NCBI GenBank assembly: GCA_021106655.1
Contig: JAIOTT010000066.1
Location: 1 to 34,106 of the forward strand
Direction of reading: 5' to 3'
DNA length: 34,106 nt
Source: Bacteroidales bacterium
GTDB taxonomy: Bacteria; Bacteroidota; Bacteroidia; Bacteroidales; SMBSF77
The notes beneath the pieces were generated by a model. It searched no databases, was not told the origin of the DNA, and saw only the letters and a list, made by a program, of their open reading frames with translations. Positions 1,233 through 16,746 of this stretch are shown one piece after another. The position numbers and the translations under genes were made by a program. The first letter of the stretch is position 1. Every line of letters starts with the position of its first letter.

Positions 1233-3176
1233 TTGATAATGAGTAACAAAATAGGAGTATATATTTGTCATTGCGGTAATAATATATCCGAGTATGTTGA
1301 TGTTGAAAGAGTTAAAGAGAGCGTGAAAAATGAGGAAGGGGTGTTTATTGCGCGAACGACTATGTTTGCGTGTGCTGATTCAGCCCAGACTGAAATAATT
1401 GATGATATAAAAAATAATGCACTTGATGGTATTGTAATAGCCTCATGCTCACCAAAGCTACACCTACAAACCTTCAGAGAGGTTGCCAAACGAGCTGGAT
1501 TGAATCCTTATAATTATGTTCAGGTAAATATCAGGGAACAAGGATCATGGGCACATTCGAATGATCCTGAAGGAGCTACAGAAAAATCTATTGGTTTAGT
1601 TAAAGCAGGAATTGCCAGAACTCGTGTCTCCAAATCACTTGAACCACTTACAATTCCGGCAAAAAATATCGTTTTAATTATTGGTGCAGGTATTGCCGGC
1701 ATGAGAGCTGCTATTGAATTAGCAGAGATGGGAACAAAAGTCTATATAATTGAAAGAGAACATTTCGTTGGTGGAAGATTGTCGCAATGGGGCGTACTAT
1801 GCTCACTTAATGAAACAGGGAAAGAACTAATTTCACGCATTTACAAAAGACTCAAGGAGTTAGATAATATCACCCTGTTCACCGGTGCAGATTTAATTTC
1901 CAAAACAGGTAGCAGTGGTAACTTTGAAGTGGAAATCAAAATTACTCCAAGGTATGTCAAATCAAAATGCGATCCCGAAAGCCTGAAAAATGCAATTGAA
2001 GCCTGCCCTGTTGAAGTTACTGATGAGTTTAATTTTCATCTGACAAAAAGAAAAGCAATATTTAAAAACTTCGAAAGTGAATTTCCTGAAGCTCCGGTTA
2101 TAAATATGGAAGACTGTACCCGCTGTGGTGATTGCCTTAAGCACTGCGACAGCATTGACCTTGACCAAAAAACCGAGATAATAAAATTAAAAATTGGAGC
2201 AATCCAGGTATGTACAGGTTTTGACCCCTATGAACCCAAAGAAGGGGAATTCGGATATAAAACAATTGACAATGTTATTACACTTCAACAGTTCAAGCGA
2301 TTGGTTGAGTTGAATAAAGACCAACTACTTTTCAAGGGGAAGGAAATTCATAATATTGCTCTTATATACTGCGTCGGAAGCAGGCAATTTGGCAAAATAA
2401 ACGGGAGTAACCAATATTGCTCACGATACTGTTGCACAGTGGCTATTCACTCATCCCTGGTAGTAGGAAAAAAATATAATGATATCCATTGCCTGCATTT
2501 TACACGAGGTGTGAGAACTTATGGAAAACAAGAATTAATTTATGATGAAGCATCTCAAAAAGGTGATATCTTTTTTCATTTTGATGAAAATACTCCTCCC
2601 ACGATTGAAAAATCAGGAAGCAAAACTATTGTTAAAGTAAATGATGTTTATACTGATCAAATAGAACTAGGTGTTGAAGCTGATCTGGTAGTACTTGTTT
2701 CAGGGATGGTTCCACGAAAAAATAATTCCTCGGTTGAAATATTAAAAACACCTGTTGGAAGAGATGGCTTTTTAAATGAAATACACCCAAAATTAAGGCC
2801 GGTTGAAACAGTTATTGATGGTGTATTTATTTCAGGTGCGGCACAAGGACCAAAAAACATTGAAGAAACAGTAAACTCAACGCTTTCTGCAGCATCAAAA
2901 GTAAATGCAATGATCTGCAGGGAAGAAATAAAACTTGAACCGACCATTGCAAAAATTAATGAAGACACTTGCGAGTGGTGTGGGAAATGTTCAGAAACAT
3001 GTCCCTTCGAAGCCATATCGCAAATAACTCATAACGGAAAACAAATAGCATCAATAATTACAACAAACTGTAAAGGCTGTGGAATATGTACACCAGTTTG
3101 CCCTGTCGATGCTATTGATGTTATTGGTTATACAAACGTGGAAATTGAAAATATGATCATGTCTTTGGCGAAATAA
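1233..3176 (+). CDS. HdrA/QmoB-like iron-sulfur flavoprotein (HdrA N-terminal Cys domain, FAD domain, C-terminal 2x[4Fe-4S] ferredoxin)
   Basis: 647-aa ORF. The track start at 1233 is TTG; the ATG at 1239 is more likely. Motifs: IGVYICHCGNNISEYVDV...ASCSPKLH...NIREQGSWAH (HdrA N-domain), IIGAGIAGMRAAIELAEMG (GxGxxG), YCSRYCC, CEWCGKCSETCP and CKGCGICTPVCP. Only 6 nt separate it from the upstream gene. Confidence 0.8.
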   Translation: MIMSNKIGVYICHCGNNISEYVDVERVKESVKNEEGVFIARTTMFACADSAQTEIIDDIKNNALDGIVIASCSPKLHLQTFREVAKRAGLNPYNYVQVNIREQGSWAHSNDPEGATEKSIGLVKAGIARTRVSKSLEPLTIPAKNIVLIIGAGIAGMRAAIELAEMGTKVYIIEREHFVGGRLSQWGVLCSLNETGKELISRIYKRLKELDNITLFTGADLISKTGSSGNFEVEIKITPRYVKSKCDPESLKNAIEACPVEVTDEFNFHLTKRKAIFKNFESEFPEAPVINMEDCTRCGDCLKHCDSIDLDQKTEIIKLKIGAIQVCTGFDPYEPKEGEFGYKTIDNVITLQQFKRLVELNKDQLLFKGKEIHNIALIYCVGSRQFGKINGSNQYCSRYCCTVAIHSSLVVGKKYNDIHCLHFTRGVRTYGKQELIYDEASQKGDIFFHFDENTPPTIEKSGSKTIVKVNDVYTDQIELGVEADLVVLVSGMVPRKNNSSVEILKTPVGRDGFLNEIHPKLRPVETVIDGVFISGAAQGPKNIEETVNSTLSAASKVNAMICREEIKLEPTIAKINEDTCEWCGKCSETCPFEAISQITHNGKQIASIITTNCKGCGICTPVCPVDAIDVIGYTNVEIENMIMSLAK

Positions 3177-4805: not shown

Positions 4806-6410
4806 ATGGCTGAACCCTTTTACATAGACGCTATCTGGCTTAGCTTAGCCTTTCTCAGTGGAATCCTCGCTAAAAGAGTAAATCTCCCCCCTTTAATAGG
4901 ATTTTTGCTTACCGGAATCATCCTGAATGCATCTGGTTTAACACATGGACATATTAGTGGAGTTTTGCATACACTCTCCGATTTGGGCGTTATGTTGCTG
5001 CTATTTACTATTGGCTTAAAAATAAGTATTAAATCTTTGATAAAACGGGAAATCTGGGCTGCTGCAAGCATCCACATGATAATTTCCGTATTAGCTATTG
5101 GGAGTTTTGTTTTTTTTCTAAGTTATTTGGGGTTACGCCTTCTAAGCGATATTTCTATTAAAAGTGCAATGCTCATTGGTTTTGCATTGAGTTTTTCAAG
5201 CACTGTATTTGTTATAAAAATTTTAGAGGAGCGAGGTGAACTGAATTCCTTTCATGGTAAGATAGCAATTGGAATACTGGTAATACAAGATATTTTTGCC
5301 ATTATTTTTCTAACGGTATCAACAAGTGAATTACCAAGTCTTTGGGTTCTGACAATACCTGTTTACCTATACATTATTCGTTTTGTTCTTTTCAAAATAT
5401 TGAACATGACAGGACATGGTGAGCTGCTTACTGTATTTGGATTTTTTGCAACTTTTGTTACAGGTGCCCTTAGTTTTGAATTAGTCGGACTGAAACCCGA
5501 TCTGGGTGCCCTGATAATAGGAATGCTGCTGGTAGGGCATAATAAGTCAAAAGAACTTTTTGAACGTATGATGAGTTATAAGGATTTTTTCCTTATTGCC
5601 TTCTTTATCAATATCGGCCTGTCGGGAATACCTACATGGAATATGATCTTTACCGCTCTTATCTTATTGGCTTTTATCGTTTTTAAAGGAGGTTTATTCC
5701 TGATAATTTTCTCGCGTTTTAATTTAAGATCACGAACAGCATTTCTCTCTTCAATAAGCCTTGCAAATTTTAGTGAATTTGGTTTAATTACAGGGCTTGT
5801 TGGTGTACAATTAGGTTTAATAAGTAATGATTGGGTGATTATTATTGCCGTACTTATGTCCTTCTCTTTTTTAGTCTCATCCCCATTAAATAATTATGCA
5901 CATAATCTCTTTAATAAATTCAAACCGGCATTAATGAAGCTTAATAGTGGACAAATGTGTGTTGATGACGAACCTGTTTTTTTGGGTAATGCAAATTATC
6001 TTATTATCGGAATGGGGAGTATAGGGCAATCAGCATACACCTACATTAACTCAGAACATAACACTAAAGCTATCGGAATTGATTATGATCATGAATTAAT
6101 AAAGAAGATTCAAAAGCAAAACATAAATGCTCTTTGGGGGGATGCAACCGACAGTATATTCTGGGAAAATGTTGATTTATCAAAAATTAAGATGATATTA
6201 TTCACTATGAGTGATCATGTTTCTAATATTAACTCCATTAAAGAAGTAGTTAAATTTAGTAACAGAAGCTTTAAGATTGGGGCTATCTGTCATTATCTTG
6301 ACGAAAGAACTGATTTTGAAGAATTGAAAGTCGATTATATTTTCAATTATAAAGTCCATCTGGGTAGTGACTTTGCGCATGGATTTCTTGGTGATTTTAA
6401 TAAAGTTTAA
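4806..6410 (+). CDS. CPA2-family monovalent cation:proton antiporter with C-terminal RCK/TrkA-N domain (KefB/KefC-like)
   Basis: 534-aa ORF. About 12 TM helices are followed by a Rossmann-like IIGMGSIGQSAY (GxGxxG) soluble domain. Confidence 0.75.
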   Translation: MAEPFYIDAIWLSLAFLSGILAKRVNLPPLIGFLLTGIILNASGLTHGHISGVLHTLSDLGVMLLLFTIGLKISIKSLIKREIWAAASIHMIISVLAIGSFVFFLSYLGLRLLSDISIKSAMLIGFALSFSSTVFVIKILEERGELNSFHGKIAIGILVIQDIFAIIFLTVSTSELPSLWVLTIPVYLYIIRFVLFKILNMTGHGELLTVFGFFATFVTGALSFELVGLKPDLGALIIGMLLVGHNKSKELFERMMSYKDFFLIAFFINIGLSGIPTWNMIFTALILLAFIVFKGGLFLIIFSRFNLRSRTAFLSSISLANFSEFGLITGLVGVQLGLISNDWVIIIAVLMSFSFLVSSPLNNYAHNLFNKFKPALMKLNSGQMCVDDEPVFLGNANYLIIGMGSIGQSAYTYINSEHNTKAIGIDYDHELIKKIQKQNINALWGDATDSIFWENVDLSKIKMILFTMSDHVSNINSIKEVVKFSNRSFKIGAICHYLDERTDFEELKVDYIFNYKVHLGSDFAHGFLGDFNKV

Positions 6411-6427
6411 TTACCTGGAAACCCCGG

Positions 6428-6448
6428 CTGAGCGGAGTTTCCTGACTT
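6428..6448. repeat. Degenerate half-copy of the GCTGAGCGGAGT hairpin element
   Basis: gctgagcggagtttcctgact matches 14823-14843 (gctgagcggagtctccagact) at 19/21 positions. It sits 18 nt after the antiporter stop, and the 3' stem half is missing. Confidence 0.6.
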
Positions 6449-6880
6449 ACAAAAACATGAAGCATTTCTTCTGCTGTCCATCTTGATTTCATTCACCGTA
6501 GGTGATATAAACCGGTAGCCTGCAGAATAGAGAAAAGCCATTATACCTCGTAGAGGTTTCATAAAGTTTTTTTGTTTTTTCATATTCTTTTTTCTTGATA
6601 AAAAAGAATCAAAAAATCAAGACTGATTATAATTCACTAAGAACCTCTAAGCAGCAATAATATGCGCAATCCAAGCCGCTATTTTATTATTTTATGCATC
6701 ATGATTTTATTTAAATTACATATTTCGTTTCTTTAAGTTATCTATACTAATCCCGCTCGTGGATTGCTTTTAATTCGCAAACATTTTTATTGCTCCAAGA
6801 GATTCTAAGAGTATTCTAAAATGTCATTTCTATTACAAAGTTCACCTTTCCCTGATAAGCATAACATAAGAAAAATAAAC

Positions 6881-6909
6881 GTTAGGCGAAGCGTCCACGC
6901 TTCGCCTAA
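6881..6909. repeat. REP-like perfect hairpin (12-bp stem, TCCA loop); a 26-nt core is repeated at 11739-11764
   Basis: TTAGGCGAAGCG-TCCA-CGCTTCGCCTAA. The string GTTAGGCGAAGCGTCCACGCTTCGCC is identical at both loci. Confidence 0.85.
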
Positions 6910-7142
6910 AATAAGCAATCTGCTAACCTACTAAACAAAATAACACACCCAAGATCCAGAACCCCATTAAAAAAATTCATTATTGCGTTAACGAGATATT
7001 AAGAAATTTTCAATATATTTGTGAAATAATTAACAACAAGTATAGACAATTCATATTACATGGGTCTACTCAATTGTTGTGATTTGCGATCTGACATAAA
7101 CTAAATAACACCTATTGATTAGTAAATCTATAGAAGTTTATT

Positions 7143-7150
7143 TAGTTTTG
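7143..7150 (+). promoter_or_regulatory. Bacteroidota-type -7 box (TAnnTTTG)
   Basis: TAGTTTTG lies 18 nt upstream of the antitoxin ATG at 7168. Confidence 0.45.
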
Positions 7151-7167
7151 TATTAAAACAATAAGAT

Positions 7168-7401
7168 ATGAATATTCAGACAGAAAAATTAAACTTAATC
7201 GAATGGATTTCAAGACTTAATGACACATCCTTATTAGAGAAACTTCGAAAAATCAAGGACGATTATTCTAAATCAACGGATTGGTGGGATACATTAAAAA
7301 TCGAAGAAATAGAATCTATAAATAGAGGATTAAAGGATTTTGAAGAAGGCAGAGTTCATTCTCATGAAACTGCTCGGGAAATTTATGAAAAATACCTATA
7401 A
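7168..7401 (+). CDS. Type II antitoxin-like small protein (addiction module component)
   Basis: 77-aa acidic helical ORF. It overlaps the downstream RelE/ParE-like reading frame by 17 nt, which is classic TA organisation. Confidence 0.6.
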   Translation: MNIQTEKLNLIEWISRLNDTSLLEKLRKIKDDYSKSTDWWDTLKIEEIESINRGLKDFEEGRVHSHETAREIYEKYL

Positions 7402-7690
7402 ACTTATTTGGTCTGATGAAGCACTAAATAACTTAAAAGAAATACTTGACTACCTAGAGCAACGTTGGACTAACAGAGAAATTAAGAGATTCTCTCAATT
7501 ACTTGATTATTAACTAAAACTGATTGAAGATAATCCATTATTATTTGCAAAGAGTGATAAATCTAACGGGATGAGAAAATCAGTACTATCAAAGCAGACA
7601 ACAATTTATTATCGTATAATTAATTATGAAATTCGTATAATAACTTTATATGATAATAGGCAAAACCCTAATAAATTGAGAATTAAATAA
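7385..7690 (+). pseudogene. RelE/ParE-family toxin interrupted by an in-frame TAA at codon 43 (7511-7513)
   Basis: ATG at 7385. The translation MKNTYKLIWSDEALNNLKEILDYLEQRWTNREIKRFSQLLDY-stop-LKLIEDNPLLFAKSDKSNGMRKSVLSKQTTIYYRIINYEIRIITLYDNRQNPNKL continues in the same frame to the TAA at 7688-7690. The ..YYRI..I.I..L.D.RQNP tail is typical of the family. Confidence 0.7.
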
Positions 7691-7956
7691 AACACAAGTC
7701 GGTTAAGCAAAGTCTCCAAAATCACTTACCTAACATCCCACTCTCAAGCCCTCTTACCGAATAATGAATTTCATAGTATTAAAAAATGAGGATGTGATCT
7801 ATATCAAAAATCGCTAACCAACAATCGAATATCAAAAATCCTGTTACAATTGTTCCCTCCTGTTTTTTGCTTTTCTTTAATGGATAGTAGTGGTTCAATT
7901 ATTAAGTAAAAGTAAAAGTAAAATTTAAAAAACTGTTTTTTATATTCCAAATTTTC

Positions 7957-7964
7957 TATTTTTG
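7957..7964 (+). promoter_or_regulatory. Bacteroidota-type -7 box (TAnnTTTG)
   Basis: TATTTTTG lies 26 nt upstream of the AOR ATG at 7990. Confidence 0.45.
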
Positions 7965-7989
7965 TATCATCAAAATAAAACTTTCAAAT

Positions 7990-10146
7990 ATGGATATTAA
8001 TAAATTAAAAGCAGCGCATAAATCTTTAAAGAAGTTTAAATATGATATTCCTGTTATCGACAGAGGATATGCCAATAAAACATTGTATATTAATGTTGGC
8101 GATAACGAAATAAAAGAAAAACCGGTAACTAAGTTAATGAAGGATAAGTTCATTGGTGGTAAAGGTTTTGGTTTAAAATTATTGTGGGAAGGTACAAAAC
8201 CTGACACAAAGTGGAATGATCCTGAAAATGAGATCATCATTTCAGGTGGTCCTATTTGTGGTATTACACAATATTCCGGTACAGTAAAATCCCTGGTGGT
8301 AAGTATTTCACCGCAAACAAACTCTGTTATTGATAGTAACGTTGGTGGTTATTTCGGGCCTTTTTTGAAATTTTGTGGATTTGACTCCCTTGAGCTTCAG
8401 GGAAAAGCTGAAAATGATATCATAATATATATTGATGGCATCAAAGGTGAAATAGAAATTTTTGAAGCTCCGGAAGAGGCTATCGACAGTCATATTCTTG
8501 CCGAACAACTCACTGAAATGTTTGCTGATGATGAGAAGGACAGGAAAAATGTTGCTGTTGTATCAGCAGGTAAAGCTGCCGACAATTCACTTATCGGGAT
8601 GCTTAACTTTAGCTTTTTTGATGTCAGAAGAAAGAAAGCCAGACTAAAACAAGCAGGCCGTGGAGGTATTGGAACTGTATTCAGAGATAAAAAGATCAAG
8701 GCACTTGTTACTAAAATCGGTGGAGTTAAAGGTAATATGAACAATGTAGTAGATCTTAAGGCTATTATTGAGAGAGGGAAAATCTTTAATAAGGAAATGA
8801 GAGACCTTGATGATTCTCAGGCTGAAATGAGAACAAAAGGAACTGCCCACCTCACTAATGTTATGAATGATTATGACCTTCTACCAACAAATAATTTTAA
8901 GTTTGGTAAGCATGAAGATGCATATAAAATTCATAGCGATATATTAAAAAAGGACTATTTTACTCAAGGTGTCCCGGATGGATGCTGGCACGGATGTAAT
9001 ATGTCATGTACCAAAGGTGTTGATGATTTTACAATCAAAACAGGGCCTTATAAAGGTCAGGTTGTTCTTGTTGACGGGCCGGAATATGAAAATGCCGGCG
9101 GATTAGGTTCAAACTGTGGAATATTTGATTTTGATTATATCGTAGAGGCTAATTTCTACTGCGACACATACGGCAGCTGTACAATTTCCTGGGGTACATT
9201 GCTGGCATTTATTATGGAATGTTTTGAGAATGGTATAATAAATGAAGAAATAACAGGTGGGCTCAAGCTAAATTTTGGAAATGCTGACGCAGCTATTGAG
9301 CTCATGCACCAGTTAGCCAGAGGAGAAGGATTCGGGCTTATTGCCGGTCAGGGTACTCGCAAAATGAAGGAGATCTTCGTTAAGGAATATGGCGCAGATC
9401 CAAACTTCTTACAGGATATTGCAAGGGAAAATAAAGGACTCGAATATTCTGAATATGTTTCAAAAGAATCTCTTGCTCAACAAGGCGGATTTGCAATGAC
9501 AAATAAAGGCCCACAACATGATGAAGCATGGCTGATCTTTATGGACATGGTAAATAACCAAATCCCAACTTTCGAAGATAAAGCCGAAGCATTACACTAT
9601 TTCCCTATGTTCAGAACATGGTTTGGATTGGTAGGATTATGTAAGCTGCCATGGAACGATGTTGAACCTGTAAATAATGCCGAAACAGACGAACCCGCAA
9701 AAGTTTCCGAACATGTTGATAATTATGTGACAGTCTTTAATGCTGTAACAGGATTAAATATTCATAAAGAAGAACTTATCAGACAATCTGAAAGAGTATA
9801 TAACTACCAACGTATCTTTAACCTTAGAAGAGGATATGGGACAAGAAAATGGGATGCACAGCCTTATAGAGCAGCAGGCCCTGTAACAACAGAAGAATAT
9901 GAGTCAAGAACAGAAAGATATGACAAGCAAATGAAAGAACTCATTGGTGTAGACCCAACAGATAAAACTGTTGAGGAAAAAGTTGATATAACCCGTAAAT
10001 ACCGTGAACAACAATATGAAGACCTTTTAGATGCTGTTTATAAGAGAAGAGGCTGGAATAACAACGGTATTCCTACTATTGAACACTTGAAAAGCCTTGA
10101 GATGGATCTTCCGGAACTAACTGAATTAATTAAAGAACATCTGTAA
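7990..10146 (+). CDS. Aldehyde:ferredoxin oxidoreductase family (tungstopterin enzyme)
   Basis: 718-aa ORF. The N-terminal signature is DRGYANKTLYINV...FIGGKGFGLKLLWE. Other motifs: QAGRGGIGTVFRDKKIKALV, a Cys cluster GCWHGCNMSC, EYENAGGLGSNCGI, CDTYGSCTISWG and a C-terminal YKRRGWNNNGIPT. Confidence 0.85.
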   Translation: MDINKLKAAHKSLKKFKYDIPVIDRGYANKTLYINVGDNEIKEKPVTKLMKDKFIGGKGFGLKLLWEGTKPDTKWNDPENEIIISGGPICGITQYSGTVKSLVVSISPQTNSVIDSNVGGYFGPFLKFCGFDSLELQGKAENDIIIYIDGIKGEIEIFEAPEEAIDSHILAEQLTEMFADDEKDRKNVAVVSAGKAADNSLIGMLNFSFFDVRRKKARLKQAGRGGIGTVFRDKKIKALVTKIGGVKGNMNNVVDLKAIIERGKIFNKEMRDLDDSQAEMRTKGTAHLTNVMNDYDLLPTNNFKFGKHEDAYKIHSDILKKDYFTQGVPDGCWHGCNMSCTKGVDDFTIKTGPYKGQVVLVDGPEYENAGGLGSNCGIFDFDYIVEANFYCDTYGSCTISWGTLLAFIMECFENGIINEEITGGLKLNFGNADAAIELMHQLARGEGFGLIAGQGTRKMKEIFVKEYGADPNFLQDIARENKGLEYSEYVSKESLAQQGGFAMTNKGPQHDEAWLIFMDMVNNQIPTFEDKAEALHYFPMFRTWFGLVGLCKLPWNDVEPVNNAETDEPAKVSEHVDNYVTVFNAVTGLNIHKEELIRQSERVYNYQRIFNLRRGYGTRKWDAQPYRAAGPVTTEEYESRTERYDKQMKELIGVDPTDKTVEEKVDITRKYREQQYEDLLDAVYKRRGWNNNGIPTIEHLKSLEMDLPELTELIKEHL

Positions 10147-10647: not shown

Positions 10648-11638
10648 GATTTTTTGTATAAAAATGGTAGTTTATTTATTGTCATCTCTCCTATTTATTG
10701 CATGTGGGAATGAGGCAGAAAAAAAAGATAGCACTAAGTCAGAAGATACATCTCATATATCCGGTGAACTTATAATTTTTCATGCAGGCAGCCTGTCAGT
10801 TCCCTTTAAAGAAATCTCTTCTGCCTTTAATCAGGAATATCCTGACTTGAAAATTTCAATGGAAGCTGCCGGCAGTGTTGCATGTGCAAGAAAGATAACC
10901 GACCTTAAACGTAAATGTGATGTTTTTGGATCGGCGGATTATAATGTTATCGATAAAATGCTGATACCTGAATATGCTAGCTGGAATATTAAATTCGTAA
11001 GCAATGAGATGGCAATTGTATATACTGAAAAATCAAAATATCATGATATTATTAATATTGATAGCTGGACTGATATTTTATTGAAGGAAGATGTTTATTA
11101 TGGAAGATCTGATCCGAATTCTGACCCTTGTGGATACAGGTCTGTACTCACTATGAAACTTGCTGAGAAGTTTTATGAGAAACCTGACCTTGCAAAAGCA
11201 TTTCTTAATAAAGATATGAATTTTATCCGCCCAAAAGAAGTTGACCTCATTGCATTACTCGAGACAAATTCTCTTGACTATATTTTTCTTTATAGATCGG
11301 TAGCCGAACAACATGGACTGGAATATTTGCTTCTTCCGGATCATGTAAATCTCAAGAACCCTGAATTTGCCAATTATTATTCAACGGTAAGTGTTGATAT
11401 CAATGGCAAAAAACCGGGTGAGACAATTACTCAAACAGGTGAGCCTATGGTCTATGGTATCACAATACCTAAAAACGCACCAAACCCGAAAGCCGCCAAA
11501 GCATTTGTAAACTTCGTCCTTTCAAAAGAAAAGGGAATGGCCATATTGGAAAAGAATGGTCAGCCATCATTAGTTCCTGCAAAAACAAATACTTATAAAA
11601 ATATACTTGATAATCTGAAAAAATTTGCAATAGAATAG
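10637..11638 (+). CDS. wtpA: Tungstate/molybdate ABC transporter substrate-binding lipoprotein, WtpA type
   Basis: 333-aa ORF with a signal peptide and lipobox (LLFIACG). Motifs recalled from archaeal WtpA are present: IFHAGSL, EAAGS, SADY, SDPNSDPCGYRS, VYGITIPKNAPN. Confidence 0.75.
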   Translation: MKNKIFCIKMVVYLLSSLLFIACGNEAEKKDSTKSEDTSHISGELIIFHAGSLSVPFKEISSAFNQEYPDLKISMEAAGSVACARKITDLKRKCDVFGSADYNVIDKMLIPEYASWNIKFVSNEMAIVYTEKSKYHDIINIDSWTDILLKEDVYYGRSDPNSDPCGYRSVLTMKLAEKFYEKPDLAKAFLNKDMNFIRPKEVDLIALLETNSLDYIFLYRSVAEQHGLEYLLLPDHVNLKNPEFANYYSTVSVDINGKKPGETITQTGEPMVYGITIPKNAPNPKAAKAFVNFVLSKEKGMAILEKNGQPSLVPAKTNTYKNILDNLKKFAIE

Positions 11639-11738
11639 AATATAGCCACAGATTTCACAGATTATTATTATCAGTGAATCTGCAGCAAAAATTTTTAAAG
11701 GATGAAAAAATCAATCATTATTTTATTAATTGCCATGT

Positions 11739-11800
11739 GTTAGGCGAAGCGTCCACGCTTCGCCAGTAATTTTTCATCATAGCGTGTACGCTACGATGAA
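11739..11800. repeat. Hairpin pair: second copy of the GGCGAAGCG-TCCA-CGCTTCGCC element plus an adjacent TCATCATAGCG-TGTA-CGCTACGATGA hairpin
   Basis: 11739-11764 is identical to 6881-6906. The second stem at 11774-11799 has one mismatch. Confidence 0.8.
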
Positions 11801-11823
11801 ACCAAAATCAATAAACTAATACC

Positions 11824-12900
11824 ATGAAACAAACAATCATCATATTATTATTAACATCATTTACCTGGAGTTGTAATCAAACAAAAGATCAAAAAAGCAG
11901 TGAAAAAGCTTTACCCGATTTAAGCTATGATGTTGATAAAGACAAAACAAATGATTTTTATGATGATGCAAAGCCATTTATTTTAAAGGGAAAAAGAATA
12001 ATAACAATAGATGGGGAAATAGCTAATCCCGGAGAAATGAACATTGAAAAGTTGCCCCTCCGCTCTTTGATTGTTAAAGAGGCTCATATTTCGGGAGATA
12101 GCAATAAATTTATTGGCGCCTATAGATATGATGGATATTCTTTATATGACATATTGAATGAATACAAACTTAAAAAGAAAAATGCCGATTCATTTAAACC
12201 AATAATTGATCTTTATGTAATAGTTGAAAATGATGAAGGTGACAAGGTAGTTCTAAGCTGGGGGGAGCTCTATTATCCTGCAAATCTGCATAATATTATC
12301 ATTGCAACAAGAGTTACAAGAATTGTTCCATCAAAGACAAATGATCTCTGGCCACTACCAGAAACAACCAAACTGATTATATCACATGATCTATTGACAG
12401 AAAGAAACATTACAAATCCGGTTAAGATCTCAATTATTTCTGATGATATTGAACTTATAGTCAGAAAGGGGCTAAAGCCCATGTATGCTTCTGAAATATC
12501 TCTGTTTATCGACAAGGAAAATATCCGGACGATCAAAACTATTCCTAAAGGACTTGATGAGATTGAATATGAAACCATCTTTTATGGCCGTGGCAGAGGC
12601 ATACACAGCACCACACCTTTTAATGGATTTTTATTAAAGGATATTCTAAAAGAAGATCTATCTGTTACAAAAGAAAATATCTGTCAGGGAATATTTATAA
12701 TTTCTGCTGAAGATGGTTATCGAGGCGTATTTACTTTTAGTGAGATATTTAACAGGAATGATCAATCCGGGCTTCTGCTAATTTATGACCCGTCAAATAT
12801 GGATGGTGGGGCATTCAGGCTGTTTCCTTCATTTGATTTCTTCTCCGACCGAGCAATAAAGTCTGTCAACGGAATATATTTTAAAACTCAAACCCGTTAA
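11824..12900 (+). CDS. Uncharacterised lipoprotein with two tandem domains reminiscent of the molybdopterin-oxidoreductase (SUOX-like) substrate/cofactor domain
   Basis: 358-aa ORF with the lipoprotein signal MKQTIIILLLTSFTWSC. Two similar halves are visible: ITIDGEIANPGEMNIEKLPL...YRYDGYSLYDILNE...VENDEGDKVVLSWGEL and ...FNGFLLKDILKE...ISAEDGYRGVFTFSEIF...LLLIYD. The domain assignment is motif-level only. Confidence 0.5.
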   Translation: MKQTIIILLLTSFTWSCNQTKDQKSSEKALPDLSYDVDKDKTNDFYDDAKPFILKGKRIITIDGEIANPGEMNIEKLPLRSLIVKEAHISGDSNKFIGAYRYDGYSLYDILNEYKLKKKNADSFKPIIDLYVIVENDEGDKVVLSWGELYYPANLHNIIIATRVTRIVPSKTNDLWPLPETTKLIISHDLLTERNITNPVKISIISDDIELIVRKGLKPMYASEISLFIDKENIRTIKTIPKGLDEIEYETIFYGRGRGIHSTTPFNGFLLKDILKEDLSVTKENICQGIFIISAEDGYRGVFTFSEIFNRNDQSGLLLIYDPSNMDGGAFRLFPSFDFFSDRAIKSVNGIYFKTQTR

Positions 12901-12936
12901 ACCAGCAACCTGTAACTTGCAACCCGCAACCTAATA

Positions 12937-13737
12937 TTGAGTGATCAAAGAAACATAAACCTGCTATTTACTGCCTTAGGTGGTCTGGTTTTATTGTTCA
13001 TCATTGCACCATTGGCCGGCCTGTTCTTTTCTACATCTCCAGGAAACATAATCGAGACCTCAGCTGATCCGGAAGTTCAGAGGAGTATTTGGTTAACACT
13101 AATGACATCTATGGCAGCTACCTTATGTTTTGCTATTGCTGCAATACCCTTAGCCTATCTGCTTGCCAAAAGAAATTTCAGGTTTAAGCGTCTTGTTCTG
13201 GGTATTATTGACCTGCCAATAGTTATTCCACATTCAGCGGCAGGTATTGCCATACTGGGATTTATTTCCAGAGATTCCGCAGTTGGACAGTTTGCCTCGA
13301 TGTTTGGATTAAACCTTGTTGGACATCCTATCGGGATTTCACTTGCGATGGCTTTTGTAAGTATCCCCTTTCTCATGAATGCAGCAAGGGATGGTTTTGC
13401 AAATGTCCCGATAAGACTGGAAAAAGCCGCACTAAATTTAGGCGCTTCACCTCTTCGTGTGTTTTTTACCATCTCTCTCCCTTTGGCATGGAGAAATATT
13501 ATATCAGGACTGATAATGATGTTTGCCAGGGGAATGAGTGAATTCGGTGCAGTAATTATTGTTGCTTATCATCCTATGATAACACCGGTTCTCATCTATG
13601 AAAGATTTGGTGCATTTGGTTTAAAGTATGCTCGACCGGTTTCTGTTATTTTTATTGTTGTTGCTCTTATCTTTTTTATTGCATTACGCTTATTATCTAA
13701 AGAGAATAAAAATGCTGGAAATCAAAAAAATAACTAA
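12937..13737 (+). CDS. wtpB: Tungstate/molybdate ABC transporter permease (WtpB/ModB-like)
   Basis: 266-aa ORF with an apparent TTG start, 6 TM helices and the EAA loop LEKAALNLGASPLRVFFTISLP. Confidence 0.7.
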   Translation: MSDQRNINLLFTALGGLVLLFIIAPLAGLFFSTSPGNIIETSADPEVQRSIWLTLMTSMAATLCFAIAAIPLAYLLAKRNFRFKRLVLGIIDLPIVIPHSAAGIAILGFISRDSAVGQFASMFGLNLVGHPIGISLAMAFVSIPFLMNAARDGFANVPIRLEKAALNLGASPLRVFFTISLPLAWRNIISGLIMMFARGMSEFGAVIIVAYHPMITPVLIYERFGAFGLKYARPVSVIFIVVALIFFIALRLLSKENKNAGNQKNN

Positions 13738-14770
13738 GATATATAAGGAATTTGCCATTAAAGATTTCAGCATTAATGTTGAAAAAGGTGACTATTTTAT
13801 GATACTTGGGGTTTCAGGTGCTGGTAAGTCATTACTGCTTGAATTGATCGCAGGACTTATAAAACCGGATTCCGGAACTATCATTTTTGAAGGCGAGGAT
13901 ATCACTAATAAAAATATTCATCATCGTAAGATAGGTCTGCTTTTTCAGGATTATGCCATCTTTCCACACCTCTCAGTAAAAGATAACATTGCCTATCCTT
14001 TGCGATTGAAAAAGCTTAGCTCAGCTGAAAGGAATAAAAGAGTGTCAGAATATGCAGAAAAAGCCAGCATTTCCCATTTGATACACAGAGATCCTTCAAC
14101 TTTGTCGGGAGGAGAGTTGCAGCGTGTTTCCTTAGCCCGTATTCTGGCAATGGAGCCTGATTGCCTCCTTCTGGATGAGCCATTATCATCACTTGATGTA
14201 CAATTAAAAGAAGGCCTGAGAACTTTACTCCGGAAGCTAAACAGAGAGGGATTGACAATAATACATATAACACATGATTTTGAAGAGACAATATCTCTGG
14301 CAAACCGTCTTGCAGTTATTCATGATGGAACTATTGTTCAACAAGGAACACCAAAAGAAGTTTTTCAATATCCCGGAAATGAGTTCGTCGCAAAAATGAC
14401 AGGGATAAAAAATTTCTTCAAAACCAAGCTAATAAAAGAACCTCCGGACAATAATGCAACAGCCTTAATAAATGAGAATATTAAAATAAATTTGCTAAGT
14501 GAGGAACAAAACTGTGAAGGACACATTTTGATCCGTAGAAGAGATATAATCATTTCTGAAAGCAAACTTCAATCAAGTGCATGCAATAATTTTGAAGGAA
14601 TTATTACAGAAACCATCCCTCAAAACACAGGAATAGAAGTTATTATTGATATTGGTGTTAAGTTTTTTGTTCTGCTTACTGAATTATCTTTTGAAGAACT
14701 CAAACTGGGAGAAGGGAAAAAAGTCTGGATATCTTTTAAAGCCTCTTCTGTCAGGTTTATAAAAAATTAA
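13712..14770 (+). CDS. wtpC: Tungstate/molybdate ABC transporter ATPase with C-terminal TOBE/Mop-like domain (WtpC/ModC-like)
   Basis: The ATG at 13712 (MLEIKKITKIY) overlaps the permease end by 26 nt; the track start at 13628 is an artefactual extension. Walker A GVSGAGKS, signature LSGGELQRV, Walker B LLLDEP. The C-terminal segment NFEGIITE...GKKVWISFKASSV is TOBE-like. Confidence 0.8.
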   Translation: MLEIKKITKIYKEFAIKDFSINVEKGDYFMILGVSGAGKSLLLELIAGLIKPDSGTIIFEGEDITNKNIHHRKIGLLFQDYAIFPHLSVKDNIAYPLRLKKLSSAERNKRVSEYAEKASISHLIHRDPSTLSGGELQRVSLARILAMEPDCLLLDEPLSSLDVQLKEGLRTLLRKLNREGLTIIHITHDFEETISLANRLAVIHDGTIVQQGTPKEVFQYPGNEFVAKMTGIKNFFKTKLIKEPPDNNATALINENIKINLLSEEQNCEGHILIRRRDIIISESKLQSSACNNFEGIITETIPQNTGIEVIIDIGVKFFVLLTELSFEELKLGEGKKVWISFKASSVRFIKN

Positions 14771-14819
14771 ACCTCTGATTTCTAAGTTGAGGCTCAAAAC
14801 CTGCCTCTTTGATCGCCTC
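14769..14819 (-). repeat. Direct repeat copy A: orphan duplicate of the radical-SAM gene 3' end (att-like)
   Basis: 45/51 identical to 15640-15690 with no gaps. The minus strand reads EAIKEAGFEPQLRNQRF, then NFL-stop. Confidence 0.85.
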
Positions 14820-14825
14820 TTAGCT

Positions 14826-14849
14826 GAGCGGAGTCTCCAGACTCCGCTC
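14826..14849. repeat. Perfect palindromic hairpin GAGCGGAGTCT-CC-AGACTCCGCTC
   Basis: 11-bp perfect arms. It starts 7 nt beyond repeat copy A, and a related half-copy lies at 6428-6448. Confidence 0.85.
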
Positions 14850-15073
14850 CAAAATAAACTGTAATTTGTAATTGCATTATCCCGATAGAATGATAAGAAT
14901 CATTGCTTTCATAATTGCATTGATGTAAAATTATTTACCCGATTAGTGATTACCTTTTAATATTATTATATACTAAGCTAATGAATTATCCAGAAGTGGT
15001 TATTTCTAAGTATAATAACTAATATTTAATGATTTTCAATATAAAGTAGCTTATACTTTTAAAATGTTATAGA

Positions 15074-15610
15074 ATGGATTCAAAAAATAATACAATTGAT
15101 ATTGCTGAAGAGATCATTGTGAGTAGAATTCACAATATCAGAGGTAAACAGGTCATGCTCTCCCATGATTTAGCTGAATTGTATCAGGTTGAAACGAAGG
15201 TATTGAATCAACAAGTTAAAAGAAATATCGGGAAGTTTCCTGAGAGATATATGTTTCAACTTACTCAGGAAGAATACAGCCGTTTAAGGTCACAAAATGT
15301 GACCTTAAATAGGGGGCAGCACATGAAATATTTGCCTTATGCTTTTTCTGAGCATGGTATATTAATGTTGTCAAGTGTTCTGCGAAGTGATAGAGCTGAT
15401 AAGGTTAACATGTTAATCATTGATACTTTTGTCAAAGTAAGGGAATTAATGTACATACATAAAGATATTATCCACCAGCTTGAACAGGTACAAAATAAAC
15501 TTACAGAACATGACAATCATATCCTTGTCATCTTTGAATATTTAAAACAATTTGAAAAGTCAAAACAATTAGAGCAAGAATACAAAGACAGAAAACGGAT
15601 TGGATATTAG
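15074..15610 (+). CDS. ORF6N-domain (KilA-N-like) DNA-binding protein
   Basis: 178-aa ORF. IRGKQVMLSHDLAELYQVETKVLNQQVKRNIGKFPERYMFQLTQEEYSRLRSQ...YLPYAFSEHGILMLSSVLRSDRA closely follows the ORF6N consensus as I recall it. Confidence 0.8.
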   Translation: MDSKNNTIDIAEEIIVSRIHNIRGKQVMLSHDLAELYQVETKVLNQQVKRNIGKFPERYMFQLTQEEYSRLRSQNVTLNRGQHMKYLPYAFSEHGILMLSSVLRSDRADKVNMLIIDTFVKVRELMYIHKDIIHQLEQVQNKLTEHDNHILVIFEYLKQFEKSKQLEQEYKDRKRIGY

Positions 15611-16713
15611 CAATAACGATTCAACAACTCAATAAACTCAAACCTCTGATTCCGCAATTGTGGCTCAAAACCTGCCTCTCTGATCGCCTCCTGAATTCCA
15701 GGAATATCGAATTGGTGATCAGCACCTGCTTTTGAGACAACATTCTCCTCTATCATCACCGAACCAAAATCATTTGCCCCGCCATGAAGACAAAGTTGAG
15801 CAGTCTCCTTGCCTACTGTTAACCAAGATGCCTGTATGTTGTTTATATTAGGAAGCATTATCCTGCTTATAGCGATCAATCTGACATACTCATCAGCCAT
15901 AACTTTATTGAAAACACCATATCGTTTTTTCAAAACTGTCCCTTCAGCCTGAAAAGGCCAGGGAATAAAAGAAACAAAACCTATAGCATCTACCGGTTTT
16001 TCATTTTGTACTCTCCTGATTGCCACCAGGTGCTCCATACGTTCAGCAATAGTTTCAATGTGTCCGAACATCATTGTAGCAGATGTTGAAATACCCAGGT
16101 GATGAGCTGCCCTCATAACATCCAGCCACTCTTTTGCTGTGCATTTATTCCGAGAGATCTTCGAACGAACTCTCTCAACAAGTATCTCGGCACCGGCTCC
16201 GGGCAAACTGTCCATTCCCGCTTCAATAAGAGTAGTCAATATTTCTTTATAGGATTGCTTTTCCATTTCCGACAGATGAACTATCTCAGGTGGGCCTAAA
16301 GCATGTAGCTTTAAGTCAGGAAAAAAAGTCTTCAGATCCCTGAATAACCTTAAATAGAAATCAAGTCCAAGCTCAGGATGCATGCCTCCCTGTATTAGTA
16401 ATTGCTTTCCTCCATAACTATATAGTTCTTCAATCTTTTTTTTATACTGATCCAAAGTTGTGATATAAGCTTCAGGGTGATTTAAGGATTTATAAAAATT
16501 ACAGAACTGACATCCAGAAACACAAACATTTGTAATATTTACATTCCTGTCGATGATCCATGTTACAATTTTATCAGGATGTAACTCTTTTCTAATGCTA
16601 TCAGCAATCAGCATTAATTCAGATGTCGGTGCATTCTCAAAAAGGAAACAGGCTTCCTCAACCGATATTTCCTGTTGATCCAATGATCTATTATATAGCT
16701 TTTCAAGATTCAT
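15607..16713 (-). CDS. Radical SAM enzyme of the MqnC/MqnE/CofH family (futalosine-pathway menaquinone biosynthesis type)
   Basis: CVSGCQFCNFY is a CxxxCxxC cluster. LIQGGMHPEL, SLPGAGAEIL and ATMMFGHIET are also present. The ATG at 16713 (MNLEKLYN) is preferred over the TTG at 16740. The stop overlaps the ORF6N stop region by 4 nt, convergently. I cannot separate MqnC from MqnE by eye. Confidence 0.7.
   Translation of the reverse strand: MNLEKLYNRSLDQQEISVEEACFLFENAPTSELMLIADSIRKELHPDKIVTWIIDRNVNITNVCVSGCQFCNFYKSLNHPEAYITTLDQYKKKIEELYSYGGKQLLIQGGMHPELGLDFYLRLFRDLKTFFPDLKLHALGPPEIVHLSEMEKQSYKEILTTLIEAGMDSLPGAGAEILVERVRSKISRNKCTAKEWLDVMRAAHHLGISTSATMMFGHIETIAERMEHLVAIRRVQNEKPVDAIGFVSFIPWPFQAEGTVLKKRYGVFNKVMADEYVRLIAISRIMLPNINNIQASWLTVGKETAQLCLHGGANDFGSVMIEENVVSKAGADHQFDIPGIQEAIREAGFEPQLRNQRFEFIELLNRYC
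15640..15690 (-). repeat. Direct repeat copy B, inside the live 3' end of the radical-SAM gene
   Basis: The minus strand reads EAIREAGFEPQLRNQRF. See copy A at 14769-14819. Confidence 0.85.
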
Positions 16714-16746
16714 GTAATGTAATTCAAATAGAGGCAGCAAAATTAC

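What the first reader, a model, noticed from the sequence alone, without database searches (positions are those of the whole stretch)
14769..15690. ORF6N/KilA-N mini-cassette bracketed by a 51-bp direct repeat that is a diverged second copy of a gene's 3' end
Positions 14769-14819 and 15640-15690 align without gaps at 45/51 identity. On the minus strand, copy B (inside the live radical-SAM gene) encodes EAIREAGFEPQLRNQRF. Copy A is an orphan that overlaps the wtpC stop codon and encodes EAIKEAGFEPQLRNQRF, then NFL-stop at 14757-14759. Five of the six nucleotide differences are synonymous (cca/cct, ttg/ctt, cgg/aga) and the sixth is R/K. The two copies therefore diverged while both were under coding constraint. 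They look like 3' ends of two different alleles or orthologues rather than a fresh target-site duplication. Homology ends abruptly at 14820, with an in-frame TAA just upstream of copy A. The 820 bp in between hold one gene (an ORF6N DNA-binding protein, a family typical of phage and ICEs), its own AT-rich upstream region, and a perfect 11-bp hairpin at the left junction. Integrative elements that insert into the 3' end of a conserved gene and supply a replacement end leave this footprint. Here there is no integrase, no tRNA target and only 0.8 kb of cargo. It may be a decayed remnant or a trans-mobilised mini-cassette, which would be unusual. The inferred ancestral state is wtpC and the radical-SAM gene converging with a 14-nt overlap.
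Basis: partly seen in the sequence, partly recalled or inferred. Interest (0 to 1): 0.7.

Follow-up and report, generated by a model that had tools for sequence, protein, structure and literature searches.

The report
Small gene islet with duplicated gene-end
About 0.8 kb of extra DNA carrying one candidate anti-phage gene sits between two housekeeping genes of a Bacteroidales bacterium and has displaced and replaced the last codons of one of them, but a sister strain holds a small transposase in the same duplicated frame, so this looks like a variable hotspot rather than a new kind of mobile cassette.

Summary
Positions 14769-14819 and 15640-15690 match at 45/51 (57 nt at 86% when extended). 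Copy B is the live 3' end of mqnC and copy A is an orphan. The predicted ancestral state exists: more than 20 contigs of close relatives have mqnC (…QRFNFL*) overlapping wtpC by 14 nt, with no ORF6N, and an outgroup also lacks it.

The bracketed DNA is not a one-gene cassette whose insertion made the repeat. Positions 14820-14881 (TTAG, a 10-bp hairpin, 32 nt) match the left end of a REP-associated tyrosine transposase (RAYT) unit. In a sister strain that unit lies at the same place, inside the same frame: a decayed orphan, the REP hairpin, a homologous replacement tail and a live copy. ORF6N (14882-15614) and the RAYT are therefore alternative occupants of an older duplicated frame.

The 48-nt patch is hypervariable and mosaic among haplotypes. 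Gene conversion can explain the mostly synonymous A/B differences (p about 0.05 against simple drift).

ORF6N matches PADLOC PDC-S05, a candidate single-gene defence family. No integrase, no second cassette copy, and no other ORF6N locus with a gene-end duplication was found. The footprint resembles icd/e14 in miniature. Interest is moderate.

The parts
13712..14770 (+). wtpC, the tungstate ABC transporter ATPase (352-aa form; the ORF opens at 13628)
   Evidence: The best NCBIfam match is NF040840 WtpC (372.7 bits, below its 440-bit cut-off), so the name is a best match and not a confirmed membership. Pfam finds ABC_tran plus TOBE. It is 98% identical to P0246 of the empty-site relatives.
14757..14819 (-). 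Orphan 3' end of mqnC. Copy A is 14769-14819 (EAIKEAGFEPQLRNQRF), followed by NFL and a stop at 14757-14759 that lies inside the wtpC end.
   Evidence: The tail and the wtpC flank match the real mqnC/wtpC overlap of L177 and L195.
14820..14881 (.). REP-type unit end: TTAG (14820-14823), a perfect hairpin at 14826-14849 (10-bp stem, TCCA loop), and 32 conserved nt (14850-14881)
   Evidence: Positions 14824-14881 match the left end of the RAYT unit in L203 with a single mismatch. The fold is. The same 27-mer occurs in L187. Related TTAG-tagged hairpins lie at 6882-6909 and 11743-11764, with a decayed copy at 6427-6447.
14882..15073 (+). AT-rich upstream region of ORF6N (GC as low as 0.21), unique to this haplotype
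   Evidence: Composition is. No similarity was found to any other ORF6N locus or to the RAYT haplotype.
15074..15610 (+). ORF6N-domain gene (178 aa), a member of the PADLOC candidate defence family PDC-S05. The ORF6N module that replaces the RAYT spans 14882-15614.
   Evidence: Pfam PF10543 E 3.7e-34. PADLOC PDLC04856 E 1.9e-58 over the whole length. PHROG anti-repressor. The family has 3125 relatives, the nearest at 81%. DNA homology to other loci is confined to the CDS.
15283..15309 (.). Perfect 12-bp palindrome with a 3-nt spacer inside the ORF6N CDS (TTTAAGGTCACAAAATGTGACCTTAAA)
   Evidence: The core AGGTCRCAAWWTGYGACCT is kept at the same place in most homologues. It occurs again upstream of the gene in several loci.
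15607..15639 (-). Replacement tail of mqnC (EFIELLNRYC*). Positions 15615-15639 are homologous to the tail of the RAYT haplotype. The last codons and the stop (15607-15614) lie in the ORF6N module and overlap the ORF6N stop by 4 nt.
   Evidence: The tail similarity to L187 scores above all 300 shuffles. The alignment is.
15640..15690 (-). Copy B, the live codons EAIREAGFEPQLRNQRF of mqnC
15607..16713 (-). mqnC (cyclic dehypoxanthinyl futalosine synthase, 368 aa = NCBI MCD4679133.1)
   Evidence: NCBIfam TIGR03699 at 444 bits, above the 428 cut-off. Pfam Radical_SAM plus CofH_C, aligned to residue 372 of the 377-aa ORF. P0121 is.

Best explanation
The wtpC/mqnC junction is a polymorphic insertion hotspot in this Bacteroidales population, and the repeat marks an older, non-allelic recombination.

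First event (inferred). A DNA segment entered a chromosome in which mqnC overlapped wtpC. The segment carried a foreign, E-type mqnC 3' end with its own tail, plus a REP/RAYT unit. The joint lies 57 nt before the resident mqnC stop, at or within 3 nt of the outer end of the REP hairpin unit. The route was either homology-facilitated illegitimate recombination or Campbell-type insertion of a circle. The incoming end keeps mqnC intact (copy B plus a new tail). The resident last 20 codons were pushed aside as an orphan (copy A), still overlapping wtpC.

Second event (partly inferred). Inside this frame the occupant was exchanged. A sister strain has REP-RAYT-REP. The window has only the left REP end (14820-14881) followed by a 733-nt module: a promoter region plus a single ORF6N/PDC-S05 gene. 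That gene is a KilA-N-like DNA-binding protein of a candidate single-gene anti-phage family.

Afterwards, gene conversion between the two copies and homologous exchange between strains scrambled the 48-nt patch.

Shown here: the insertion polymorphism, the shared frame, the RAYT/ORF6N alternation, and the mosaic patch. Inferred: the order of events, the recombination route, and the defence role of the gene.
For: Empty site. L177, L188-L194 and L195-L202 have mqnC (361 aa...QRFNFL*) overlapping wtpC by 14 nt. L177 positions 9024-9080 match both copies. The outgroup L178 has mqnC, a 95-nt spacer and wtpC, with no ORF6N and no orphan.

Shared frame. L203 has wtpC, then a 36-nt orphan with two in-frame stops, then a hairpin plus 32 nt matching window 14824-14881 with one mismatch. 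A 188-aa gene follows, matching NCBIfam REP_Tyr_transpos at 103 bits (cut-off 80), then the inverted hairpin. L187, from the same sample, has mqnC with tail ERLVD*, 75 nt, and the hairpin. The two contigs overlap by 15 nt inside the hairpin. The tails are homologous (0 of 300 shuffles).

Breakpoints. The joined sequence J 1-1348 equals window 13515-14881, and J 2046-3148 equals window 15615-16714. The ORF6N module is therefore 14882-15614.

E-type haplotype. The window and J share an mqnC 3' half that differs from the empty-site allele from about nt 600 onward. This fits a homologous crossover upstream of the repeat.

Mosaic patch. L177 differs from A by 12, from B by 11 and from L187's copy by 11 nt of 51. 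A and B differ by 6, and at 8 positions A = B but not L177. The adjoining wtpC is about 98% identical. The orphan in L203 carries B-type codons TTG CGG AAT CAG AGG TTT.

ORF6N and mobility genes. ORF6N matches PDC-S05. One PDC-S05 representative lowered plating of T7 and T5 about 1000-fold (bioRxiv 10.1101/2024.09.26.614923). Homologues sit in toxin-antitoxin/RHS islands. No integrase or transposase is present in the window.
Against: The join of L203 and L187 rests on a 15-nt overlap inside a palindrome, the shared sample, and matching flanks. It is not a contiguous read.

Neither recombination route explains on its own why both copies differ from the empty-site allele at 8 shared positions. 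This needs gene conversion, or a recipient allele that has not been sampled.

The direction of the RAYT-to-ORF6N exchange is inferred only from the window keeping a partial RAYT unit. An ancestor with both genes, followed by differential loss, is not excluded. L140 shows the two genes can be neighbours.

The donor of the ORF6N module is unknown.

The defence role is untested for this protein. The tested PDC-S05 representative was annotated with a RhuM domain.
Confidence: 0.55

Rival explanations
1. The 0.8-kb ORF6N segment is itself a small integrative cassette moved in trans. Copies A and B are attR and attL. The cassette brings its own mqnC end.
For: The structure has direct repeats with a replaced gene end. 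An empty site exists in relatives. The replacement tail looks like a natural MqnC tail. The A/B differences are mostly synonymous.
Against: The same repeats, tail and hairpin bracket a RAYT instead of ORF6N in a sister strain, so the frame is not specific to ORF6N. No second copy of 14820-15639 was found in 203 fetched loci, plasmids or phages. No other ORF6N locus among about 100 has a coding gene-end duplication. No mqnC locus of 80 other species has an orphan end within 4 kb. There is no integrase in 34 kb.
Confidence: 0.07
2. The frame is the decayed remnant of a larger integrase-bearing element (prophage, ICE or IME) that targeted the mqnC 3' end and supplied a replacement end, as e14 does at icd. 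Most of the element was deleted. The RAYT and ORF6N are survivors or later passengers, making this a CIME-like relic.
For: It shows the same footprint as icd/icdC around e14: a live gene running into the element and a C-terminal pseudogene at the far end (PMC13626634). Three different mqnC tails occur among alleles at least 93% identical (NFL, EFIELLNRYC, ERLVD), as expected at a recurrent attachment site. The 48-nt patch is hypervariable.
Against: No integrase, excisionase or other phage or ICE gene is seen in either occupied haplotype or in the window. Divergence of the E-type allele starts about 400 nt upstream of the repeat, which a crossover inside an att core would not give. The orphan's boundary coincides with the end of a REP unit rather than with any recognisable arm-type site. 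Viral contigs hold no mqnC-end mimic.
Confidence: 0.2
3. This is a local duplication of 57 nt of the resident gene. It arose either as a long target-site duplication or as a tandem duplication with later capture of DNA. The two copies then drifted apart.
For: A and B are closer to each other (6 differences) than either is to the empty-site allele (11-12 differences), and they share 8 derived positions.
Against: The live copy continues into a different tail of the E type, which is found in other MqnC proteins. The orphan continues into the N-type tail, so the copies stem from two arrangement types. A simulation with a neutral orphan gives at most one amino-acid difference and no stop in only about 5% of runs. 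No known transposition mechanism makes 57-bp duplications, and Y1 transposases make none (established knowledge of IS200/IS605).
Confidence: 0.08

Closest known systems
e14 (and phage 21) integration into icd of E. coli, with the icdC pseudogene
   Same: Incoming DNA supplies an alternative 3' end, so the target gene stays intact. The original end is left as a C-terminal pseudogene at the far side. The two ends differ mainly at synonymous sites, and recombination between them restores a single chimeric gene (PMC13626634, which cites Hill et al. 1989).
   Different: e14 is about 15 kb and encodes its own integrase and excisionase. Here the insert is 0.8 kb with no recombinase in the window. Its only mobility-related part is a REP hairpin end, and no att core or excision product has been shown.
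RAYT/REP units (REP-associated tyrosine transposases flanked by inverted REP hairpins; REPINs)
   Same: The sister haplotype has a 188-aa protein above the NCBIfam RAYT cut-off, flanked by two inverted copies of the 26-nt hairpin. The window keeps one such hairpin. It also has three further TTAG-tagged GC-rich hairpins. This agrees with the descriptions in PMC3116915, PMC5581495 and PMC3733652.
   Different: The window has no RAYT gene. Copy number is low (4 hairpins in 34 kb, in two sequence families). RAYT/REP systems are not known to duplicate gene ends or to be swapped for a defence gene.
CIMEs (cis-mobilisable elements: att-flanked relics of ICEs lacking their recombination genes)
   Same: It is a short segment bracketed by direct repeats, one of which restores the target gene end, and it has no recombinase of its own.
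   Different: No cognate ICE or integrase is known for this site. The repeats have not been shown to be recombination sites. The comparison rests on my knowledge of the Streptococcus thermophilus CIME literature and was not tested here.
PADLOC PDC-S05 (candidate single-gene anti-phage system)
   Same: The protein gives a full-length HMM match (E 1.9e-58). Homologues lie among toxin-antitoxin, RHS and Fic genes.
   Different: This protein has not been tested. The one tested representative was annotated with a RhuM domain. The mechanism is unknown.
Integron gene cassettes
   Same: It is a gene-sized unit with a nearby hairpin.
   Different: Integron insertion makes no duplication of flanking genes. 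No attC-like imperfect palindrome lies at the gene's 3' end, and there is no integron integrase. This was rejected.

Membership tests
Integrative element inserted in a gene 3' end (icd/e14 type) | Direct repeats at both ends, one of which completes the target gene | tested here: met
   Copies A and B match at 45/51. B plus its tail gives an intact MqnC that aligns to the end of CofH_C.
Integrative element inserted in a gene 3' end (icd/e14 type) | Uninterrupted attB in related genomes | tested here: met
   L177 and all places shown for the 22 contigs read for P0243 and the 22 read for P0246 have the empty site.
Integrative element inserted in a gene 3' end (icd/e14 type) | Element-encoded tyrosine or serine integrase next to an att site | tested here: not met
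   Pfam scans of all ORFs of at least 120 aa in the 34-kb window find no integrase. The sister haplotype has only a Y1 HUH transposase.
Integrative element inserted in a gene 3' end (icd/e14 type) | The same element, or its att core, found at this target in independent lineages | tested here: not met
   None of 80 mqnC loci of other species has an orphan end within 4 kb. The second occupied haplotype shares the same frame, so it is not independent.
Integrative element inserted in a gene 3' end (icd/e14 type) | Excision as a circle, with junction reads | not testable with these tools
   This needs raw reads of ERZ26872897, SRR15668619 and SRR32546281.
RAYT/REP unit | Y1 HUH transposase matching the RAYT model | tested here: not met
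   No such gene is in the window (tblastn). It is met only in the sister haplotype L203 (NF047646, 103 bits against a cut-off of 80).
RAYT/REP unit | RAYT gene flanked by REP hairpins in inverted orientation | tested here: inconclusive
   This is seen in the joined L203 plus L187 sequence, where the right hairpin is split between two contig ends. The window keeps only the left hairpin.
RAYT/REP unit | REP hairpins repeated in the genome | tested here: inconclusive
   Four TTAG-tagged GC-rich hairpins of two sequence families, one of them decayed, lie in 34 kb. The rest of the genome is not available.
PADLOC PDC-S05 | Match to the family HMM over its full length | tested here: met
   PDLC04856 E 1.9e-58, covering residues 7-168 of 178 and profile positions 4-169 of 177.
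PADLOC PDC-S05 | Protection against phage | not testable with these tools
   There is only a report for another representative.
Pfam ORF6N (KilA-N-like DNA-binding domain) | Domain match above the gathering score | tested here: met
   117.3 bits against a cut-off of 27.8, covering profile positions 2-86 of 86.
Integron cassette | attC site at the cassette end and no flanking duplication | tested here: not met
   A 57-nt duplication is present. The only hairpin is a perfect REP-type palindrome 224 nt upstream of the gene.

The most novel reading that the evidence does not exclude
Copies A and B are the attachment sites of a family of integrase-less elements of about 0.8 kb with exchangeable cargo, either a RAYT or a PDC-S05 defence gene. 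These elements target the 3' end of mqnC and bring a replacement gene end. They are moved by the Y1 (RAYT) transposase acting at the TTAG-tagged REP hairpin, or by a recombinase in trans. REP/RAYT units would then be vehicles, or landing pads, for single defence genes. The arrangement in L140, where ORF6N lies between two identical RAYT units, would be another example.
Probability: 0.1. Interest if true: 0.75.

Novelty: new variant of a known kind. Interest (0 to 1): 0.4.

Why it matters
Single-gene defence candidates such as PDC-S05 are scattered across Bacteroidales at 75-81% protein identity, with no shared flanks, and how they move is unknown. This locus offers a rare case with both junctions readable. 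Three haplotypes are available: the empty site, a RAYT-occupied form and a defence-gene-occupied form. Together they show gene-sized exchange inside a pre-existing frame next to a REP hairpin. They also show how an essential menaquinone gene survives insertion by having its end swapped. The locus further suggests that an orphan gene end can feed variation back into the live gene by gene conversion. It is a useful worked example and a testable lead on REP/RAYT involvement, not a new class of element.

Tried and rejected
The following searches and ideas led nowhere or were rejected.

- GTDB genome scan with MqnC. The nearest species is only 68% identical, with no synteny to wtpC and no ORF6N, so it was useless for finding the empty site. 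The protein search then found it.
- Orphan mqnC ends in 80 other species. The only hit, in L037, was a chance match inside an AbgT-type transporter gene.
- Flanking repeats at about 100 ORF6N loci, by blastn-short and tblastx. Only non-coding repeats or tandem paralogues turned up, and no gene-end duplication.
- Viral contigs, phages and plasmids. There was no close relative of the gene, no copy of the cassette, and no mqnC-end mimic.
- Rfam on the region and on the 325-nt element. Nothing credible was found.
- The motif CTGAGCGG as a shared recombination core of ORF6N loci. It gave 16 hits against about 12 expected, so it was rejected.
- The L187 spacer against the ORF6N upstream region. No similarity above shuffles was found.
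- Exact look-ups of the window's MqnC (377-aa ORF form) and WtpC. Neither was on record.
- Integron, IS200/IS605 peel-and-paste and long target-site duplication models. These were rejected because they give either no duplication or only very short ones.
- A PDB sequence search for ORF6N. It gave no hit.


Full report
THE OBSERVATION

The window around 14.4-16.0 kb holds three genes. wtpC (+) ends at 14770. An ORF6N gene (+) spans 15074-15610. mqnC (-) spans 15607-16713.

Positions 14769-14819 and 15640-15690 align without gaps at 45/51. The match runs to 57 nt at 86%. The core 29-mer occurs only at these two places, against 0.00 expected.

On the minus strand copy B encodes EAIREAGFEPQLRNQRF and continues as EFIELLNRYC*. 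Copy A encodes EAIKEAGFEPQLRNQRF and continues as NFL*, with its stop inside the end of wtpC. The six differences fall in four codons: K/R and three synonymous codons, two of them double changes. The hairpin next to copy A has a 10-bp stem and a TCCA loop.

THE EMPTY SITE

Species representatives in GTDB were too distant to help. The best MqnC match was 68% identical, with no synteny. The protein search found closer relatives.

P0122 and P0243 (93% identical, 361 aa) end in ...QRFNFL. Their contigs show mqnC overlapping wtpC by 14 nt, with the same neighbours as in the window (pepA, pdxA and the wtp operon) and no ORF6N. This holds for L177 and for all places shown among the 22 contigs read for P0243 and the 22 read for P0246.

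L177 positions 9024-9080 align to both copies. The window therefore has 814 extra nt plus a 57-nt duplication. An outgroup, L178 (MqnC 83% identical), has mqnC, a 95-nt spacer and wtpC, with neither ORF6N nor an orphan.

A THIRD HAPLOTYPE CHANGES THE PICTURE

The 90% cluster of the window's MqnC holds a variant, P0242, that ends in ...QRFERLVD. Its contig L187 (sample SRR32546281) continues for 75 nt and stops inside the same hairpin. The match to the window is 27/27 nt.

A WtpC variant from the same sample, P0263, lies on L203. After the wtpC stop L203 has, in order:
- a 36-nt orphan reading *CFEP*LRNQRF;
- a hairpin plus 32 nt that match window 14824-14881 with one mismatch;
- a 188-aa gene on the minus strand, matching NCBIfam REP-associated tyrosine transposase (103 bits, cut-off 80) and Pfam Y1_Tnp;
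- an inverted copy of the hairpin at the contig end.

The two contig ends overlap by 15 nt inside the hairpin. The joined sequence reads wtpC, A', REP, RAYT, REP, 95 nt, B', mqnC. This join is an inference.

Against the window, homology runs from wtpC to 14881 and resumes at 15615. The replacement tails of the two haplotypes are homologous (0 of 300 shuffles).

Two conclusions follow. First, 14820-14881 is the left end of a RAYT/REP unit. Second, the ORF6N module is 14882-15614, and the frame of orphan, REP end, tail and live copy is common to both haplotypes. The repeat is therefore not the footprint of ORF6N's arrival. Because the window keeps only part of the RAYT unit, I infer that ORF6N replaced the RAYT. 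Differential loss from an ancestor holding both genes is not excluded.

THE PATCH

Across the 51 nt the counts are as follows:
- the empty-site allele differs from A by 12, from B by 11, and from L187's copy by 11;
- A and B differ by 6;
- at 8 positions A = B but not L177.

The wtpC DNA that starts right after the F codon is about 98% identical, and the centre of mqnC is 98-99% identical. The window and the RAYT haplotype share an mqnC 3' half that differs from the empty-site allele from about nt 600 onward. The window's first 200 nt of mqnC differ from both. The locus is thus a recombination mosaic.

The orphan in L203 carries B-type codons, which points to gene conversion between orphan and live copy. 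A simulation with a neutral orphan gives the observed pattern in about 5% of runs, so the argument is suggestive only.

Both tail types (N-F-L-like and E-F/L-like) occur in natural MqnC proteins. The two copies therefore do stem from two arrangement types.

MECHANISM

The structure needs a non-allelic joint between two partners. One is an E-type segment: an mqnC end with its own tail, a spacer and a RAYT unit. The other is an N-type chromosome with mqnC overlapping wtpC.

Homology-facilitated illegitimate recombination fits the divergence that begins upstream of the repeat. Campbell-type insertion of a circle fits the icd/e14 analogy. Either route needs later conversion to explain the 8 shared positions.

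The orphan's boundary lies at or within 3 nt of the outer end of the REP unit. Three of the four REP-like hairpins in the window carry the same TTAG at that side. I therefore suspect that breakage at the REP end made the joint. This is inference.

No integrase is present. No second copy of the cassette was found. No other ORF6N locus has a coding duplication. No other mqnC has an orphan end.

THE GENE

The 178-aa protein has a full ORF6N domain. It matches phage anti-repressor PHROGs only over that domain. It matches PADLOC PDC-S05 over its whole length. One PDC-S05 representative reduced plating of T7 and T5 about 1000-fold in E. coli.

Relatives number in the thousands. They are 75-81% identical in many contexts, with DNA similarity confined to the coding sequence, and they often lie among toxin-antitoxin, RHS and Fic genes. 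Viral contigs hold only distant relatives.

COMPARISON AND VERDICT

The locus works like icd/e14 in miniature: gene end replaced, original end kept as a pseudogene. It fails the membership test for an integrative element on the integrase and on independent recurrence. Its only mobility-related part belongs to a RAYT/REP unit, and that is complete only in the sister strain.

I file it as a new variant of known kinds: a polymorphic hotspot in which a RAYT unit and a single candidate defence gene alternate inside a frame made by a gene-end duplication. It is of moderate interest. It would be worth more if REP/RAYT units prove to be general landing pads for such genes.

Noticed in passing
window 11611-12908: This is a second gene-sized difference from the empty-site relatives. 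Here 1298 nt replace 59 nt at the wtpA/wtpB junction of L195. The segment carries a 358-aa lipoprotein-like ORF (11824-12900) with no Pfam match, and a TTAG-tagged GC hairpin at 11743-11764. The ends of both neighbouring genes are altered.
   Followed up: partly
window 6427-6447, 6882-6909, 11743-11764, 14826-14849: These are the only GC-rich perfect hairpins in the 34-kb window, apart from a decayed copy. They form two REP-like families (GGCGAAGCG-TCCA-CGCTTCGCC and GAGCGGAGTC-TCCA-GACTCCGCTC). They share the TCCA loop, a TTAG on the 5' side and mostly TAAAATAA on the 3' side. Two of them lie in segments that relatives lack.
   Followed up: partly
window 6410-7990: This is a 1.6-kb stretch with no long ORF. 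It holds two of the REP-like hairpins and small ORFs at 7168-7401, 7340-7513 and 7571-7690. These look like a broken toxin-antitoxin pair. The ParE_toxin match is weak (E 0.017) and below the Pfam cut-off.
   Followed up: partly
window 15283-15309; also L106 250-268, L107 690-708, L115 1872-1890, L118 602-620, L130 2150-2168: The palindrome AGGTCRCAAWWTGYGACCT lies at a fixed place inside the ORF6N coding sequence in most homologues. In several loci it occurs again upstream of the gene. It may be the protein's own binding site.
   Followed up: partly
L115 2557-2884, L116 3491-3811, L118 1287-1609, L133 383-703/1409-1737/2437-2761, L127, L129, L120, L145: A conserved non-coding element of about 325 nt (80-86% identical) starts about 5 nt after the ORF6N stop. 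It ends a constant 233 nt before residue 17 of the next ORF6N paralogue, forming tandem arrays. The element is more conserved than the genes it separates. It has no Rfam match and only one compensatory pair in a predicted fold.
   Followed up: partly
L140 5-736 and 2470-3201: Two 100% identical 732-nt RAYT units (hairpin, 189-aa RAYT, inverted hairpin) flank a 264-aa ORF and an ORF6N gene (1842-2396). The arrangement is either composite-transposon-like or a 2465-nt circle or tandem repeat. L169 also has a RAYT fragment about 1 kb upstream of its ORF6N.
   Followed up: partly
window 16514-16713 (first 200 nt of mqnC): The 5' end of mqnC differs at 20-21 of the first 100 nt from both the RAYT haplotype and the empty-site allele, which agree with each other there. 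This is a separate recombination tract.
   Followed up: no
L002 (window 14871-15787) and L187/L203 contig ends: Short-read assemblies of three samples break at or next to the REP hairpin and about 100 nt inside mqnC. This pattern is expected if several haplotypes of this junction coexist in one sample.
   Followed up: no
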